DNA of 14,413 nucleotides from a virus. Lineage: Duplodnaviria; Heunggongvirae; Uroviricota; Caudoviricetes. The position numbers and the translations under genes are program-made. The stretch lies in the IMG/VR virus record IMGVR_UViG_2654587996_000008; one strand, written 5' to 3'. Positions 630 to 6,479 of the stretch are shown here, piece by piece. Under the pieces are notes generated by a model. That model ran no database searches. It was given only the letters and a program-made list of their open reading frames with translations, and was not told the origin of the DNA. Every line of letters begins with the position of its first letter. Positions within the stretch are counted from its first letter, which is position 1.

Positions 630-656
630 ATGAAAATGGCCCGTGTGAGGGGCCAT
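630..656 (-). terminator. Putative intrinsic terminator of the three-gene operon
   Basis: 7-bp GC-rich stem (636-642 'ATGGCCC' pairing 650-656 'GGGCCAT') with a 7-nt loop, followed on the minus strand by 'TTTCATT', directly after the stop at 659-661. Confidence 0.4.
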
Positions 657-658
657 AA

Positions 659-1126
659 TTATTTTACGATTCTGAAAGAAGGAATCTCAAGAAGAGGCAG
701 AAGCAGTGGTTTAATGCCCACGCGAGTAGATAACCCATAAACCTGCTCACGAACATATGGGTATATAATCAATGGAGCGTTAAAATCAGCCCAATGAGGG
801 ATATGCTTAACAGAGAATTCTTCAGTATCTACTGTAAAAACTCCTCCGACTTCAACCCATATAGAGACAGGTTGGTTCTCATACTCTTGGTTGTCAGCTT
901 CAGAATTATCCTCATCTACAGCAAATCTGCCAGCACGAACCCTCATACTTACATGTATAGTAGATGTTGCTTCATCAAAATCTGAATGGCCTGCTTCCAT
1001 AGCGTAGCTACCAGCTTGGTAGTCAGCCGAATGTGCAGTCTTAACGTCATGCACTTCAATACTCAGCTTCAAAACTTGCAACGAACGGAGTTGCACAGCA
1101 TGTGCTCGAAATGACTTATTTGACAT
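659..1126 (-). CDS. SecB-like chaperone
   Basis: 155 aa. C-terminal 'NAPLIIYPYVREQVYGLSTRVGIKPLLLPLL' matches the SecB signature segment (E. coli SecB '...[30 protein letters not shown]...'). Start overlaps the upstream stop as TAATG (translational coupling). Confidence 0.6.
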   Translation of the reverse strand: MSNKSFRAHAVQLRSLQVLKLSIEVHDVKTAHSADYQAGSYAMEAGHSDFDEATSTIHVSMRVRAGRFAVDEDNSEADNQEYENQPVSIWVEVGGVFTVDTEEFSVKHIPHWADFNAPLIIYPYVREQVYGLSTRVGIKPLLLPLLEIPSFRIVK

Positions 1127-1434
1127 TAGGCCGCCAGTGCAAATTCAGGTTCTGCTTCAACAGCTAAGACCGTGTCAGCGTTCAAGGATTTAGCAGCATT
1201 TAGCTTCACAGTAGCAAACAAAGTTACCAGTTCCTCTGTCATGACTTCTGAAAAGTGCAAAGACAAAGACTCCAGAGTATTTACATCAAAATCTTTGAAT
1301 TTTTCGCTTTTTTTCAGAAAAGAGGAAACATCCCCTTCTCTACATTCCCTGGCTTCTTTAAGGAACTCTTCAGGTGTTAAAGACAAGATGTCTTGTAACG
1401 CCGCGTCCAATGCAGCCTTCATTCTACGGTTCAT
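1126..1434 (-). CDS. Small acidic helical protein; putative antitoxin/adaptor of the operon
   Basis: 102 aa with SD 'GAGGGG' 8 nt upstream of the ATG. Starts 12 nt after the upstream gene and overlaps the downstream start. No recognisable DNA-binding motif; the C-terminal tail '...TVLAVEAEPEFALAA' is acidic/hydrophobic. Confidence 0.5.
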   Translation of the reverse strand: MNRRMKAALDAALQDILSLTPEEFLKEARECREGDVSSFLKKSEKFKDFDVNTLESLSLHFSEVMTEELVTLFATVKLNAAKSLNADTVLAVEAEPEFALAA

Positions 1435-1446
1435 AGTGGAACCCCT

Positions 1447-2052
1447 CTAATTTTTAGTTATAGCAAGATAATCCAGATTTCTAACTATCACAGCAAACGG
1501 CGCTCCAACATACCCAGCCAGTTGGTCTGGCATTTTATGTGGTTGCTGGACGGTGGCTAACACTACGCCAACTGATATGCATTTGGATTCTTCAGTTCGA
1601 TTGATGAGCATTTGATGCACTGCACAGATAAGGTCTTCTCTCTCATCAACATTCTGGGCATTTATAGTTGGCCAAAGACCATCAAGCGCTTTTCTTAAAG
1701 TTACTCTAAACTCGGGACTCTCAAGGTTTAAAACCTCTTCACCAGGTGCCTTGACGTACCCCCAAATTACAGCGCAACCTTTGTCAGCTTCGTCTGAATA
1801 TTCACCTCTTTTTTCAGCAGCAACAAACCAACTTTCTGCAAGTTGAGTTGCATATTGGCATCCTTTTTCAGCAGCATGCCAAAGATAAGCTCCCACACCA
1901 CGCCTACCACCGTCTCCAACTCTGAAACCATTCTCCAGAATTGATGCAGCCCTTGAGCAGCAAGTTCCATGGGAGCCATGTGCTTCGAAGAAGGTAGCTT
2001 CAACTGATTCATCATTAGCGGCTTGATCGGAAACTAAACTTAACATATTCAT
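1447..2052 (-). CDS. Putative ADP-ribosyltransferase-fold protein (PARP/diphtheria-toxin-like H-G-S/T motif)
   Basis: 201 aa. 'FFEAHGSHGTCCSRAASILENGFRVGDGGRRGVGAYLWHAAEKGCQYA' resembles the NAD-binding core of H-Y-E clade ARTs (PARP1 '[37 protein letters not shown]', diphtheria toxin 'YHGT'). Candidate catalytic acidic residues lie further downstream. The functional call is inference. Confidence 0.45.
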   Translation of the reverse strand: MNMLSLVSDQAANDESVEATFFEAHGSHGTCCSRAASILENGFRVGDGGRRGVGAYLWHAAEKGCQYATQLAESWFVAAEKRGEYSDEADKGCAVIWGYVKAPGEEVLNLESPEFRVTLRKALDGLWPTINAQNVDEREDLICAVHQMLINRTEESKCISVGVVLATVQQPHKMPDQLAGYVGAPFAVIVRNLDYLAITKN

Positions 2053-2148
2053 TTAGTTACCATTTATCCGTTTCTTAGTGTTCTTAGCCAACTAACTGAA
2101 CCTTCTTCAGTGGACGTTAGTAGACAAACTATAGGACAAGTTTATCCG

Positions 2149-2154
2149 ATTATA
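2149..2154 (-). promoter_or_regulatory. Candidate -10 box (TATAAT on minus strand) for the three-gene operon
   Basis: Plus-strand 'ATTATA' at 2149-2154 gives a perfect minus-strand TATAAT about 95 bp upstream of the start at 2052. No convincing -35 was found. Confidence 0.2.
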
Positions 2155-2348
2155 AAAACAACACAAGCTATCTGATGAATAGGTTGATCCCGTTTTTAAG
2201 TAATCACCTCAGCAAACAACAATTACTTACTGAAGCAACTGTAACTTAGAGCGCGTACGACCAAAAACCCCGCTAGCGGTGCCGATGAGTGACAAGTTTT
2301 GACAGGTGCATCAAACGATCTGCACATGAAATTTTCTAAAGCGGCGCG

Positions 2349-2606
2349 GTTGACACTTTCCGGCTTAAGACCTTAATAAATCTTAATATCGCAGGTTGAC
2401 ACACTTGACACTTTTTCGCGAAAAACCTTAGCATTTCTAAGCATGGCAACTTGACATTTTTCGCGGTTTTTTCGGCTTTTTGACGTGGTAAATCTGGCAC
2501 AAACCCAGTAATTGCGGGGCTTACAGCGAGGTTGACACTTTTTCGCGTTCAGAGTGTAAAGTGTCAACCTGGCAAGCTTGCCAGCTGCTCAACTTGACAC
2601 TTTTTG
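2349..2606 (+). repeat. Array of direct repeats, consensus about TTGACACTTTTTCGCG, plus one inverted copy and a 16-bp palindrome
   Basis: Copies at 2349-2360, 2395-2402, 2405-2420, 2451-2466, 2480-2485 (degenerate), 2531-2547 and 2594-2606; inverted 'GTGTCAAC' at 2561-2568; perfect palindrome 'CTGGCAAGCTTGCCAG' at 2569-2584. Spacing is irregular. Confidence 0.7.
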
Positions 2607-2609
2607 ATG

Positions 2610-3137
2610 TCATTGATGGTCTGATTTTTCCCACTCAGCCAGGGCGTTTAACCCGGCTTCACTCCATGATTCCGGTTCATCGGGATAATCACCTGCAACA
2701 TAGCAGAGTTCGCAACGCAGCATACGAATTGCCAGCCTGGCATTACCTCGCAAATTGTATTTTTCAAAGTAATGCTGCCCTTCATCATCCTCAAGGCAGA
2801 TAGCACCATCATCAAGAAAGTGCACTTCCCAGCCTAATTCCCCGGCTGCATACAGCACACGCTGCTGTATGCCCTCGTCCGTTACTGGCGCAGGAATTTT
2901 ACCGTCTCTGGCCTTAACTGCTTTCCAGAACTCGCCCCATGTCATTTCCAGCGTTCTTTCTGGCCACATTTCAGAAATGGTGTCTTTCCCCTGTGCTGGT
3001 GGGCTGTTCCGCTGCTCTGTCGCTTCCACATCAATTTTTTTACCGGACATGACCACTTCGCCTTTCTCGAGCCAGTCGTAAACTGTCTGGCGGCTTACGC
3101 CTTTGTATTTGGCGTATTCGGCTTTACTCATCAACAT
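2610..3137 (-). CDS. Nu1-like winged-HTH DNA-binding protein (possible terminase-small-subunit-like / packaging-redirection protein)
   Basis: About 175 aa from the ATG at 3137 (SD 'GAGGTG' 7 nt upstream; the ORF track's earlier ATG at 3155 lacks an SD). N-terminus 'MSKAEYAKYKGVSRQTVYDWLEKGEVV' resembles lambda Nu1 'KKQLADIFGASIRTIQNWQEQGMPV'. The repeat array lies immediately 3'. Confidence 0.5.
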   Translation of the reverse strand: MLMSKAEYAKYKGVSRQTVYDWLEKGEVVMSGKKIDVEATEQRNSPPAQGKDTISEMWPERTLEMTWGEFWKAVKARDGKIPAPVTDEGIQQRVLYAAGELGWEVHFLDDGAICLEDDEGQHYFEKYNLRGNARLAIRMLRCELCYVAGDYPDEPESWSEAGLNALAEWEKSDHQ

Positions 3138-3236
3138 GTAGCTCACCTCATGCATATACGATAAAAAATAATTTCATGCGGAAAGGGAATGCGTTGTGGG
3201 TATGGAGGAAAGGGGCAATAACCGCCCCTTACTGAT

Positions 3237-5482: not shown

Positions 5483-5616
5483 ATCCCTATTCCAAATGAA
5501 AATATTCAGATTAATCTTATCAGGAACCCAGATGCAATTGAATATTCATCTGCTCAGCAACGTAGTAGCTTTCCTCAGAAAGCATCAACAAAAAACCAAG
5601 AGAATCCCATCCTCTG

Positions 5617-5904
5617 TTACTGACTACAATTGTTCTTTTTTTGGTATTTCCTGAATGCCTCACCATTGGGCTGATGTAATCCCATCCCGACATGTGCCCG
5701 GCAGATGGTTTTGCGCATCTCCCCGAAATTATCCTGCCTTGCTGGTGGGCGTGCTGCCTTGTGGATACATTCCGCGCGACGTTTTGCCGCCTGTTCCCGT
5801 GCCTTGTCATCATTCGCCAGCATGATGACCTCAGCCCACCGCGCCGCCGCTCTGCGGTACAGGCCACGCGCTTCCAGTGCTTCCGCTTTACTGTCCTGAA
5901 TCAT
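5617..5904 (-). CDS. PerC-family transcriptional regulator (Pch-like)
   Basis: 95 aa. 'KAEALEARGLYRRAAARWAEV' matches the conserved PerC/Pch N-terminal motif as I recall it. SD 'AGGAGG' upstream; ATGA overlap with the upstream stop. Confidence 0.65.
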   Translation of the reverse strand: MIQDSKAEALEARGLYRRAAARWAEVIMLANDDKAREQAAKRRAECIHKAARPPARQDNFGEMRKTICRAHVGMGLHQPNGEAFRKYQKKNNCSQ

Positions 5905-6479
5905 GCACCTGTTACCTCCTTTGCTGCCCGGCGCTGACGTTTGCGCTTCTCATTCAGCGCCACCAGCCGCGTTTCTGCCTCCTGCTGTTCCTGTGGTGTC
6001 ACTTCCCCACATGGCTGGCCTTTCAGGTCGTAGCGTACCCCACCAGCCATTAAGGCGCGGTAATAGCGCGGACACTGCGCATAAGATGCCAGCGTCGCAC
6101 GTAATGCCCCTGGCCCGAATGCCAGCCCCCTGACGGCGAGGTTCTGCATCAGGTCGTCGAATATCCCCACCTTAAGCGGCTTCGGTGCTTCCCGGCTGAA
6201 TAAGTCAGGCCACAACTCAGTAAGGCGGTTAACGCGCCTGCGGTTTTTTCGCTGCCGTTTGGTCATATGCCGCCACGGTGTCGCCCCTGTGGGCTTTTGC
6301 TGCGCTTTCTGGTTACCGGGCATCACTTTATGTGCCGATGTGGTTTTATCCTGCTCCTGCGTCGCCTGCGTCGTTTTCTGCGGCGTGCCGTAAATGCCTT
6401 TCGGTTTTCTGTTAATGGTCAGCTTAGTCATGCTTTGCCCCATCGTTTTTACTGGTTGTTTCATATCCGGTACTTTCAT
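5901..6479 (-). CDS. ProQ/FinO-domain RNA-binding protein
   Basis: 192 aa. 'KPLKVGIFDDL...LRATLASYAQCPRYYRALMAGGVRYDLKGQPCGEVT' parallels E. coli ProQ 'RPLKIGIFQDL...[36 protein letters not shown]', preceded by a basic Lys/Arg/Gln-rich N-terminus. The exact start is uncertain among several in-frame ATGs. Confidence 0.65.
   Translation of the reverse strand: MKVPDMKQPVKTMGQSMTKLTINRKPKGIYGTPQKTTQATQEQDKTTSAHKVMPGNQKAQQKPTGATPWRHMTKRQRKNRRRVNRLTELWPDLFSREAPKPLKVGIFDDLMQNLAVRGLAFGPGALRATLASYAQCPRYYRALMAGGVRYDLKGQPCGEVTPQEQQEAETRLVALNEKRKRQRRAAKEVTGA

What the first reader, a model, noticed from the sequence alone, without database searches (positions are those of the whole stretch)
659..2052. 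Three-gene coupled operon: ART-fold protein, small acidic protein, SecB-like chaperone (candidate novel toxin-antitoxin-chaperone or defence module)
Three tightly packed minus-strand genes (12-nt gap, then a TAATG overlap) sit at the cargo end of the satellite, in visibly AT-rich DNA next to an IS element. The third protein resembles SecB, which outside secretion is known as the chaperone of tripartite toxin-antitoxin-chaperone (TAC) systems built on HigB, MqsR or HicA toxins. Here the first gene instead carries a PARP/diphtheria-toxin-like H-G-S/T motif. I am not aware of a described ART-toxin/SecB-chaperone combination; if the motif calls hold, this is an uncharacterised TAC-like or anti-phage module.
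Basis: partly seen in the sequence, partly recalled or inferred. Interest (0 to 1): 0.85.

Follow-up and report, generated by a model that had tools for sequence, protein, structure and literature searches.

The report
Divergent CmdTAC-type anti-phage toxin operon
Three tightly coupled genes at the cargo end of a phage-satellite-like island encode an ADP-ribosyltransferase toxin, a small degradable antitoxin and a SecB-like chaperone; this is a divergent relative of the already described CmdTAC anti-phage system, so the gene combination is real but not new.

Summary
Three minus-strand genes (A 1447-2052, B 1126-1434, C 659-1126) have a 12-nt gap and a TAATG overlap, with a promoter-like site upstream and a hairpin terminator downstream.

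- **Gene C:** it is a SecB-fold protein. Its best match is the mycobacterial TAC chaperone Rv1957.
- **Gene B:** it is a small acidic protein ending in the ssrA-like degron ALAA.

The novelty claim fails. An ART-toxin/antitoxin/SecB-chaperone system is already published as CmdTAC (PD-T4-9; Vassallo 2022 and 2024; Mets 2024). CmdT ADP-ribosylates mRNA, ClpXP degrades CmdA through its C-terminal Ala-Ala, and CmdC senses phage capsid protein.

Gene A's family is a distant CmdT relative:
- hhalign against the characterised O112ab:H26 CmdT gives 96.8%, E 2.7e-10.
- hhalign against the ECOR22 clade gives 94%, E 1.3e-7.
- PADLOC's PD-T4-9_A and PD-T4-9_B models miss genes A and B.

The toxin-antitoxin-chaperone gene order is conserved across phyla and sits in mobile-element cargo sites.

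Verdict: a new, divergent member of a known kind. Activity, target and trigger are inferred, not shown.

The parts
2128..2156 (-). Promoter-like site (TTTATA, 17-nt spacer, TATAGT) about 75 nt upstream of gene A
   Evidence: Consensus scan, 9 of 12 matches. The site is conserved in the orthologous Klebsiella locus L031 as TTTGTA-17-TATAGT. Promoter function is inferred, not shown.
2095..2111 (-). Perfect 6-bp inverted repeat (ACTGAA-GAAGG-TTCAGT) in the leader; a possible operator or leader RNA hairpin
   Evidence: Read directly from the sequence. The last ~110 nt before the start codon are nearly identical between E. coli CI5 and Klebsiella L031, although the coding DNA has diverged. Function is inferred.
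1447..2052 (-). Gene A: ADP-ribosyltransferase-fold toxin, a distant CmdT homologue (201 aa). Putative triad H28 / Y56 / E154.
1435..1446 (-). 12-nt A/B spacer carrying a GAGGGG Shine-Dalgarno for gene B
   Evidence: Read from the sequence. ECOR22-type cmdA is preceded by GGAGGGG in the published primers.
1126..1434 (-). Gene B: small acidic antitoxin candidate (102 aa, pI 4.7). Conserved N-terminal region, variable C-terminal extension ending EFALAA (ssrA-like ClpX degron).
   Evidence: Position between toxin and chaperone. All nine homologues taken from related loci end in [F/Y/W]-x-[L/K/T]-A-A or KIA. CmdA proteins end LDLAA, GFAA, QIAA and IAQAA. The Ala-Ala/LAA end of CmdA is an experimentally shown ClpXP signal. 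No significant sequence similarity to CmdA.
659..1126 (-). Gene C: SecB-like TAC chaperone (155 aa). Its start overlaps B's stop (TAATG).
   Evidence: Pfam SecB 2.5e-5, below the gathering score. PADLOC PD-T4-9_C 2e-9. PDB sequence search: 5mtw_C Rv1957 at 6.9e-7 over residues 10-149. AF2 model pLDDT 89. Foldseek: 5mtw 5.9e-8 and E. coli SecB 1qyn 4.3e-7, probability 1.0. hhalign to the CmdC clade 96.5%, E 1e-9.
636..656 (-). Intrinsic-terminator-like hairpin (7-bp stem, 5 G-C pairs) followed by UUUUCAUU, directly after the stop codon of gene C
   Evidence: Terminator scan. RNA fold -11.6 kcal/mol, z -2.81; 2 of 200 shuffles fold as well.

Best explanation
The operon is a CmdTAC-type toxin-antitoxin-chaperone (TAC) abortive-infection module, carried as cargo by a satellite-like integrative island.

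**Shown here**
- Gene A has an ART fold with an invariant PARP-type His and Tyr, and it is a distant homologue of both characterised CmdT toxins.
- Gene C is a SecB-fold protein closest to TAC chaperones.
- Gene B is a small acidic protein in the antitoxin position, with a conserved ssrA-like C-terminal ALAA.
- The three genes are translationally coupled in the order T-A-C. That order is conserved across the family in several phyla.

**Inferred from published CmdTAC work**
- In uninfected cells, B binds A and neutralises it, and possibly helps it fold.
- A tetramer of C shields B's disordered C-terminal chaperone-addiction region from ClpXP.
- During infection, an abundant newly made phage structural protein titrates C away.
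- B is then degraded through its Ala-Ala end.
- Freed A uses NAD+ to ADP-ribosylate single-stranded RNA (mRNA).
- Translation stops and phage production is aborted.

Which phage and which protein trigger the system is unknown. So is the exact nucleotide context that A modifies.
For: **ART fold and motifs**
- The PARP H-G-T...G-x-G-x-Y-F motif aligns in a profile search of PDB sequences.
- H28 and Y56 are invariant, and E154 is 90% E plus 3% Q, across 164 family members.

**Homology to CmdT**
- The O112ab:H26 CmdT (WP_097333619.1) was shown experimentally to be an NAD+-dependent mRNA ADP-ribosyltransferase.
- It scores 38 bits against the gene-A family HMM, E 1e-4 scaled to 1.84 billion sequences.
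- hhalign to it gives 96.8%, E 2.7e-10, over 163 columns.
- The ECOR22 CmdT clade gives 94%, E 1.3e-7, score 51.3. Shuffled controls reach at most 16.2.

**Chaperone**
- all place C among SecB-like TAC chaperones.

**Antitoxin tail**
- The tail is conserved across B homologues and matches the experimentally defined ClpXP signal of CmdA.

**Conserved architecture**
- ART, then a small ORF, then a SecB-like gene occurs in 13 of 14 distinct family loci examined.
- These come from Enterobacteria, a Polaromonas plasmid next to a type ISP restriction enzyme, Desulfobacterota and Treponema MAGs, and metagenomes.

**Genomic location**
- The sites are typical defence-cargo sites: after the primase of Klebsiella islands, after the tail-fibre genes of a P2/HP1-like prophage, and beside umuDC in lambdoid prophages.
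- In this window the operon is the last cargo inside an integrase/primase island bounded by a 21-bp direct repeat.
- The genuine CmdTAC loci recovered here sit in P2-like prophage hotspots.
Against: - No experiment bears on this particular operon.
- PADLOC's PD-T4-9_A and PD-T4-9_B models do not match A or B at E<=1, nor do they match 60 relatives of A at E<=0.001.
- HMM-to-sequence searches do not connect the family to the ECOR22 clade (3-7 bits). That link rests on profile-profile comparison and on the O112ab:H26 bridge.
- B shows no significant sequence similarity to any CmdA.
- The ECOR22 clade's conserved C-terminal R-Q-Q motif is replaced by G-x-P-x-C in this family.
- The third catalytic residue (E154) lies in a predicted helix in the model, so the triad assignment is uncertain.
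- One family locus (L010) lacks the chaperone.
Confidence: 0.78

Rival explanations
1. The operon has the same TAC architecture and the same defence logic, but toxin A has a different substrate from CmdT. Candidates are DNA (as for DarT), structured RNA or tRNA (as for RhsP2), a protein, or plain NAD+ consumption (as for the RES-domain toxins MbcT and NatT).
For: - A is only distantly related to the characterised CmdTs, at about 18% identity over the profile alignment.
- The C-terminal motifs differ from the ECOR22 clade: G-x-P-x-C in place of R-Q-Q.
- A carries an extra ~20-residue N-terminus and a helical insertion at 113-157.
Against: - Two CmdTs that are themselves barely alignable with each other (hhalign 57.7%) both modify mRNA (PMC11618068). 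That suggests the target is conserved across the superfamily.
- The experimentally tested O112ab:H26 toxin is the nearer relative of gene A. It shares the HGT, GxGxYF, LDL and GxPxC motifs.
- A has the H-Y signature of the diphtheria/PARP clade, not the R-E-S signature of RES toxins.
Confidence: 0.2
2. The trio is mainly an addiction or stabilisation module that keeps the island, or the neighbouring IS-flanked DNA, in the chromosome. It has no role in phage defence.
For: - Toxin-antitoxin modules are classic stabilisers of mobile DNA.
- Relatives occur on small plasmids of Polaromonas, Acinetobacter and Psychrobacter.
- The operon sits at the island edge next to an IS3 element.
Against: - Both tested CmdTAC systems and the unrelated MqsRAC and HigBAC TACs protect against phages.
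- The family sits in recognised prophage and satellite defence hotspots and next to restriction enzymes.
- A chaperone whose titration releases the toxin suits sensing of foreign proteins better than it suits post-segregational killing.
Confidence: 0.1
3. Gene A is a catalytically dead ART-fold protein (a pseudo-PARP), and the operon is a decaying remnant.
For: - No canonical Glu sits at the start of a predicted beta-strand in the model.
- The operon is found in only 1 of 5,426 complete E. coli genomes.
- It lies next to an IS element.
Against: - All three ORFs are intact and translationally coupled.
- Substitutions against orthologues are strongly biased to third codon positions.
- H28, T30, G52, G54, Y56, W58 and W75 are invariant, and E154 is 90% conserved, across 164 diverse relatives.
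- The promoter and leader are conserved between genera.
Confidence: 0.03

Closest known systems
CmdTAC of E. coli O112ab:H26 (CmdT WP_097333619.1; Mets et al. 2024, bioRxiv 10.1101/2024.02.24.581848)
   Same: - Three genes in the order ART toxin, small antitoxin, SecB-like chaperone, with overlapping or abutting ORFs (L035).
- The toxin shares the G-x-H-G-T, G-x-G-x-Y-F, L-D-L and G-x-P-x-C motifs. It matches the gene-A family HMM (38 bits) and profile (96.8%, E 2.7e-10) over its full length.
- The antitoxin ends in Ala-Ala, shown to be the ClpX signal.
- The chaperones are homologous (95.7%, E 9e-9).
- It is carried on a prophage.
   Different: - Pairwise identity of the toxins is very low. 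BLASTP finds only the 35-residue H...Y segment, at E 0.006.
- Gene A has ~20 extra N-terminal residues.
- The antitoxins are unrelated in sequence and length (121 vs 102 aa).
- This chaperone is larger (155 vs 128 aa), with an acidic insertion at about residues 66-86.
- The host element differs: a satellite-like island rather than a P2-like prophage.
CmdTAC / PD-T4-9 of E. coli ECOR22 (Vassallo et al. 2022 PMC9519451; Vassallo, Doering & Laub 2024 PMC11618068)
   Same: - The same T-A-C architecture and size class. The whole system is 1,214 bp against 1,394 bp here.
- The toxin has an ART fold of the diphtheria-toxin/exotoxin A type with an H-Y-[E/D/Q] signature.
- The catalytic Y41 (G-Y-Y-F-W) aligns with Y56 (G-A-Y-L-W), and the E-L-L-D-L motif aligns with E-V-L-N-L.
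- The antitoxin is acidic and ends LAA.
- The third gene is a SecB-like chaperone.
- It is mobile-element cargo.
   Different: - Homology is detectable only by profile-profile comparison (94%, E 1.3e-7). HMM-to-sequence scores are 3-7 bits, and the PADLOC PD-T4-9_A and _B models do not match.
- The N-terminal motif is F-H-N-C rather than S-H-G-T.
- The C-terminal R-Q-Q-M-C-V-Y is replaced by G-A-P-F-A-V-I-V.
- CmdA is 77 aa and not alignable with B.
Mycobacterium tuberculosis HigBA1-Rv1957 TAC, and the MqsRAC, HicAB-type and HigBAC TACs
   Same: - The SecB-like chaperone is the best sequence and structure match of gene C (5mtw).
- The logic is the same: an antitoxin with a C-terminal chaperone-addiction extension and a ClpXP-sensitive aliphatic C-terminus.
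   Different: - The toxins are RNases (HigB, MqsR, HicA), not ARTs.
- The antitoxins have canonical DNA-binding domains.
- The gene order differs in some of these systems.
ART-fold toxins of two-gene TA systems: DarTG, ParST, and the RES-Xre systems (MbcTA, NatRT)
   Different: - They have no chaperone gene.
- Their antitoxins are macrodomain or Xre-type proteins.
- Their catalytic signatures differ (R-E-S for RES).
- Their targets are DNA, Prs or NAD+ itself.

Membership tests
[quoted passage not shown] | The first gene encodes a homologue of CmdT | tested here: met
   Homology is remote. The gene-A family profile against O112ab:H26 CmdT gives hhalign 96.8%, E 2.7e-10 over 163 columns, and HMM 38 bits. 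Against the ECOR22 clade it gives 94%, E 1.3e-7, score 51.3, with shuffles reaching at most 16.2.
CmdTAC (PD-T4-9) | The toxin and antitoxin are recognised by the existing detection HMMs (PADLOC PD-T4-9_A and PD-T4-9_B) | tested here: not met
   A and B give no match at E<=1. None of 60 relatives of A match at E<=0.001. Positive control: genuine ECOR22-type proteins score 4e-97, 3e-38 and 7e-61. The validated O112ab:H26 CmdT itself reaches only E 0.007, so these models are narrow. DefenseFinder's CmdT HMM could not be run.
CmdTAC (PD-T4-9) | The toxin has an ART fold with the H-Y-[E/D/Q] signature of the diphtheria-toxin/PARP clade | tested here: inconclusive
CmdTAC (PD-T4-9) | A small second ORF directly downstream encodes an antitoxin with a ClpXP-sensitive Ala-Ala / LAA C-terminus | tested here: met
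   B is 102 aa, pI 4.7, and ends EFALAA. The tail is conserved in all nine homologues examined. Sequence homology to CmdA was tested and not found, but the authors state that CmdA is too variable to be used for calling.
CmdTAC (PD-T4-9) | [quoted passage not shown] | tested here: met
   PADLOC PD-T4-9_C 2e-9. hhalign to the CmdC clade 96.5%, E 1e-9. Foldseek to 5mtw 5.9e-8 and to SecB 1qyn 4.3e-7.
CmdTAC (PD-T4-9) | Function: A+B is toxic and C rescues it; A performs NAD+-dependent ADP-ribosylation of mRNA; the system gives abortive-infection protection triggered by a phage structural protein | not testable with these tools
   This needs expression, biochemical and phage-challenge experiments.
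TAC systems in general (Bordes 2016; Guillet 2019) | The antitoxin carries a C-terminal chaperone-addiction (ChAD) segment with aromatic residues that the SecB-like chaperone binds | tested here: inconclusive
   B has a variable C-terminal half with conserved aromatic residues (F47, F49, F61, F73, F98) and an aromatic residue three to four positions before the end in all homologues. Binding was not modelled or measured.
Housekeeping protein-export chaperone SecB (the RefSeq name given to gene C) | It reaches the NCBIfam/TIGRFAM equivalog score and sits in the yibN-grxC-secB-gpsA context | tested here: not met
   NCBIfam SecB equivalog scores are 17-21 bits against cut-offs of 103-181. Pfam SecB scores 24.7, below the gathering score of 26. 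The gene lies in a mobile island next to an IS3 element. The expected housekeeping context is as described.

The most novel reading that the evidence does not exclude
Gene A represents a large PARP-motif clade of TAC toxins. The clade has at least 411 clusters at 50% identity and spans Proteobacteria, Desulfobacterota and Spirochaetes. Current PD-T4-9 detection models do not see it. It may differ functionally from the two characterised CmdTs, through a different nucleic-acid or sequence specificity or through a chaperone tuned to a different phage structural protein. In that case it would be a distinct, widely distributed defence subtype carried by phage satellites.
Probability: 0.3. Interest if true: 0.5.

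Novelty: new member of a known kind. Interest (0 to 1): 0.3.

Why it matters
The finding shows that CmdTAC-type defence, an mRNA-targeting ADP-ribosyltransferase held in check by a degradable antitoxin and a SecB-like sensor chaperone, is broader than the current HMMs suggest.

- A family of several hundred sequence clusters is annotated only as 'hypothetical protein' and 'protein-export chaperone SecB'.
- PADLOC's toxin and antitoxin models miss this family. They also nearly miss the experimentally validated O112ab:H26 CmdT.
- Adding this clade to defence-finder models would improve annotation of satellites, prophages and plasmids.
- It supplies a natural panel of divergent toxin-chaperone pairs for asking how trigger and target specificity evolve.

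It does not open a new mechanism class.

Tried and rejected
- **Sequence-only searches for A and B:** Pfam, NCBIfam, PADLOC and phmmer against PDB sequences found nothing for A and B.
- **PADLOC on relatives of A:** a scan of 60 relatives, looking for a bridge to PD-T4-9_A, found none. A second scan at E<=10 also found none.
- **CmdT against the family:** direct phmmer and HMM searches gave only marginal scores. hhalign against a single ECOR22-type CmdT sequence aligned only the GxYFW motif, at 7.8% probability. Significance appeared only after a six-member CmdT-clade profile was built from phage and plasmid hits.
- **B against CmdA:** comparisons with ECOR22, Vibrio and O112ab:H26 CmdA by BLASTP and hhalign were not significant. 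I do not claim antitoxin homology.
- **The search for related loci:** With A1 it returned only six distant loci from species-representative genomes.
- **tblastn of A:** no match in phage records, and one Polaromonas match in plasmid records.
- **D90, E106 or E111 as the catalytic acid:** rejected, because they are only 50-60% conserved across the family, against 90% for E154.
- **Housekeeping SecB reading of gene C:** rejected on score and genomic context.
Full report
**1. The observation**

- The A/B spacer is 12 nt and carries GAGGGG. The stop of B and the start of C overlap as TAATG.
- A sigma-70-like site (TTTATA-17-TATAGT, 2156-2128) lies about 75 nt upstream of A.
- A GC-rich hairpin plus a U-run follows C directly (656-636; -11.6 kcal/mol, z -2.8).
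- GC content is 0.41-0.455 in the operon, against roughly 0.47-0.56 in most of the island.

The window is identical to E. coli CI5 (NZ_CP011018.1). It is the only one of 5,426 complete E. coli genomes with this DNA. RefSeq calls A and B 'hypothetical protein' and C 'protein-export chaperone SecB'. An IS3 pseudogene abuts the operon.

The genes are under purifying selection. Against the Klebsiella and metagenomic orthologues, differences concentrate at third codon positions (A 14/8/41, B 12/8/26, C 6/3/57).

**2. The three proteins**

*Gene C.*
- It matches Pfam SecB weakly (2.5e-5, just under the gathering score), PADLOC PD-T4-9_C (2e-9) and the M. tuberculosis TAC chaperone Rv1957 (5mtw, 6.9e-7, nearly full length).
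- An AlphaFold model (pLDDT 89) hits 5mtw first (Foldseek 5.9e-8, probability 1.0) and then E. coli and H. influenzae SecB.
- It is not the housekeeping SecB. NCBIfam equivalog scores are about 20 bits against cut-offs above 100, and the genomic context is a mobile island.

*Gene A.*
- It has no Pfam, NCBIfam, PADLOC or PDB-sequence match.
- Its close family is small: 12 clusters, all 'hypothetical', from Klebsiella, Citrobacter and Pectobacterium.
- An exhaustive profile search found 411 clusters at E<=1e-3 and 258 at E<=1e-10, mostly 170-200 aa.
- The family profile aligns H-G-T...G-[rk]-G-x-Y-F with the catalytic His and Tyr segments of PARP3, PARP10 and PARP12.
- In a 164-sequence alignment, H28, T30, G52, G54, Y56, W58 and W75 are essentially invariant. 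E154 is the only strongly conserved acidic residue (148 E, 5 Q).
- The spacing H28-Y56-E154 resembles diphtheria toxin H21-Y54-E148. That comparison is from my own knowledge. The model puts E154 at the end of a helix, so the third residue remains an inference.

*Gene B.*
- It is acidic (pI 4.7).
- It has a conserved N-terminal ~45 residues and a variable C-terminal half that ends EFALAA.
- Every homologue I extracted from related loci ends in an aromatic residue followed by x-[L/K/T]-A-A or KIA. One ends EYALAA, which matches the last five residues of the ssrA tag (the ssrA sequence is from my own knowledge).

**3. The combination is already described**

The PADLOC hit of C led to PD-T4-9, renamed CmdTAC.
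- Vassallo et al. 2022 found it in E. coli ECOR22. [quoted passage not shown]
- Vassallo, Doering and Laub 2024 showed four things:
  - It modifies N6 of adenine in GA dinucleotides of single-stranded RNA and blocks translation.
  - CmdA ends in LAA and is degraded by ClpP unless CmdC protects it.
  - The T4 capsid protein Gp23 titrates CmdC.
- Mets et al. 2024 characterised a second CmdTAC, from E. coli O112ab:H26. Its toxin modifies mRNA in an NAD+-dependent manner, and its CmdA Ala-Ala end is the ClpX signal.

**4. Is this operon a CmdTAC?**

I recovered the real systems so that I could test this directly.
- A Y41A mutagenesis primer from the Nature supplement located ECOR22-type cmdTAC in three complete E. 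coli genomes. There it sits in the P2-like prophage hotspot between dinI and the portal gene. The locus spans 1,214 bp, as published. Its proteins score 4e-97, 3e-38 and 7e-61 on the PADLOC A, B and C models, which serves as the positive control.
- tblastn added a Vibrio phage and three Moraxellaceae plasmids, all in T-A-C order.
- The synthetic DNA fragments in the Mets supplement located WP_097333619.1 and its partners in another prophage (L035).

Results of the comparisons:
- HMM-to-sequence searches do not link gene A's family to the ECOR22 clade (3-7 bits).
- PADLOC's A models match neither gene A nor 60 of its relatives.
- Profile-profile comparison is clear. The family against the ECOR22 clade gives 94%, E 1.3e-7, score 51.3 over 161 colinear columns. 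Thirty column-shuffled controls reach at most 16.2, and the reversed profile reaches 12.5.
- That alignment pairs S-H28-G-T with F-H-N-C, G-A-Y56-L-W with G-Y-Y41-F-W, and E-V-L-N-L with E-L-L-D-L.
- The O112ab:H26 CmdT matches the gene-A family HMM directly (38 bits; E 1e-4 even for a 1.84-billion-sequence search space). hhalign gives 96.8%, E 2.7e-10 over 163 columns. It shares the G-x-H-G-T, G-x-G-x-Y-F, L-D-L and G-x-P-x-C motifs.
- That toxin is nearer to gene A's family than to the ECOR22 clade (57.7%, E 1e-4). PADLOC detects it only at E 0.007.
- The chaperones are homologous (96.5% and 95.7%).
- The antitoxins are not demonstrably homologous. The original authors excluded CmdA from homologue calling because it varies too much.

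**5. Conservation of the architecture and its context**

- ART, then a small ORF of 93-143 aa, then a SecB-like gene recurs in 13 of 14 distinct loci of the gene-A family. These include a hypersaline-type metagenome contig, other metagenomes, a Polaromonas plasmid beside a type ISP restriction enzyme, Klebsiella and Citrobacter chromosomes, and Desulfobulbus, Desulfobacterales and Treponema MAGs.
- One locus (L010) has only the ART and a 63-aa ORF.
- Close relatives sit after the primase of Klebsiella integrase-AlpA-primase islands, after the tail-fibre genes of a P2/HP1-like prophage, and beside umuDC in lambdoid prophages.
- In this window the operon is the last cargo of an island with an integrase, an AntA-like protein, an Icd-like protein, a D5_N/DUF5906 primase-helicase, ProQ/FinO and PerC genes.
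- A 21-bp direct repeat (TACCCCCAAAAGTACCCCCAA) lies next to the integrase end and again beyond the IS3. That places both the IS3 and the operon inside the ~15.4-kb element at tRNA-Thr.

**6. Mechanism**

The anatomy, the conserved degron tail and the homology to two tested systems support one model.
- A is held inactive by B.
- B's disordered C-terminal part is shielded by a C tetramer.
- A phage structural protein competes for C.
- ClpXP then removes B through its Ala-Ala end.
- A ADP-ribosylates mRNA, translation stops and the infection aborts.

Only the anatomy and the homology are shown here. Activity, target and trigger are inferred. The two characterised CmdTs are very divergent from each other, yet both target mRNA. 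For that reason I rate an RNA target as more likely than not for A. A different substrate remains a live rival, at about 0.2.

**7. Novelty and score**

What is new is modest.
- This is a divergent, unannotated clade of the CmdT superfamily, with its own antitoxin family, carried here by a phage-satellite-like island.
- PADLOC's PD-T4-9 toxin and antitoxin models do not detect it.

I file it as a new member of a known kind, with interest 0.3.

Noticed in passing
window 2350-2603: Six copies of AAAGTGTCAA (five exact, one with a single mismatch; five on the minus strand and one on the plus strand) lie between the 181-aa HTH_17 gene (2610-3155) and the TAC promoter. Seven matches occur in the whole window against 1.36 expected, and 0 of 200 shuffles reach 7. 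They look like iterons: possibly the island's replication origin, or a packaging or regulatory site.
   Followed up: partly
L001 12493-12513 and 27847-27867 (the left copy lies ~0.9 kb left of window position 1; the right copy lies beyond the window's right end): A 21-bp exact direct repeat, TACCCCCAAAAGTACCCCCAA, flanks the whole element from beyond the IS3 to just past the integrase. These are probable att sites of a ~15.4-kb island at tRNA-Thr, beside proA. The IS3 is therefore inside the island.
   Followed up: partly
window 2053-2165: The ~110 nt leader and promoter of the operon are almost identical between E. coli CI5 and Klebsiella locus L031, although the coding DNA differs by about 10%. 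The region contains a perfect inverted repeat, ACTGAA-N5-TTCAGT (2095-2111), a possible autoregulatory operator.
   Followed up: partly
L035 5001-6320, compared with the PADLOC models: The experimentally validated O112ab:H26 CmdT matches PADLOC PD-T4-9_A only at E 0.007, and its CmdA matches no model. PADLOC v2 would therefore probably miss a published CmdTAC as well as this window's clade.
   Followed up: yes
L010 3001-3790: One family member has the ART gene followed only by a 63-aa ORF, with no SecB-like gene. It sits between what look like inverted duplicate blocks of integrase-containing genes. It may be a chaperone-independent two-gene variant or an assembly artefact.
   Followed up: no
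L023 4004-5127: In a Desulfobacterales MAG, the ART ORF is followed immediately, with a 4-nt overlap, by a 198-aa ORF that matches the SecB-like profile. This could be a fused antitoxin-chaperone, or an over-extended ORF call that hides a short antitoxin.
   Followed up: no
L031-L034 11965-20593: In the Klebsiella islands the TAC trio is followed by further candidate conflict genes: an Imm_superinfect protein and a SocA_Panacea-domain protein (an antitoxin-type domain). This suggests a multi-system cargo region.
   Followed up: no
window 659-1126 (RefSeq WP_052734126.1): RefSeq names gene C 'protein-export chaperone SecB', although it scores about 20 bits against equivalog cut-offs of 103-181. 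The same over-specific name appears on the TAC chaperones of all the related loci examined.
   Followed up: yes
window 5600-6400: A GC-rich patch (0.56-0.61) covers the PerC and ProQ/FinO genes, in contrast to the 0.37-0.45 GC of the neighbouring cargo. The island is compositionally mosaic.
   Followed up: no
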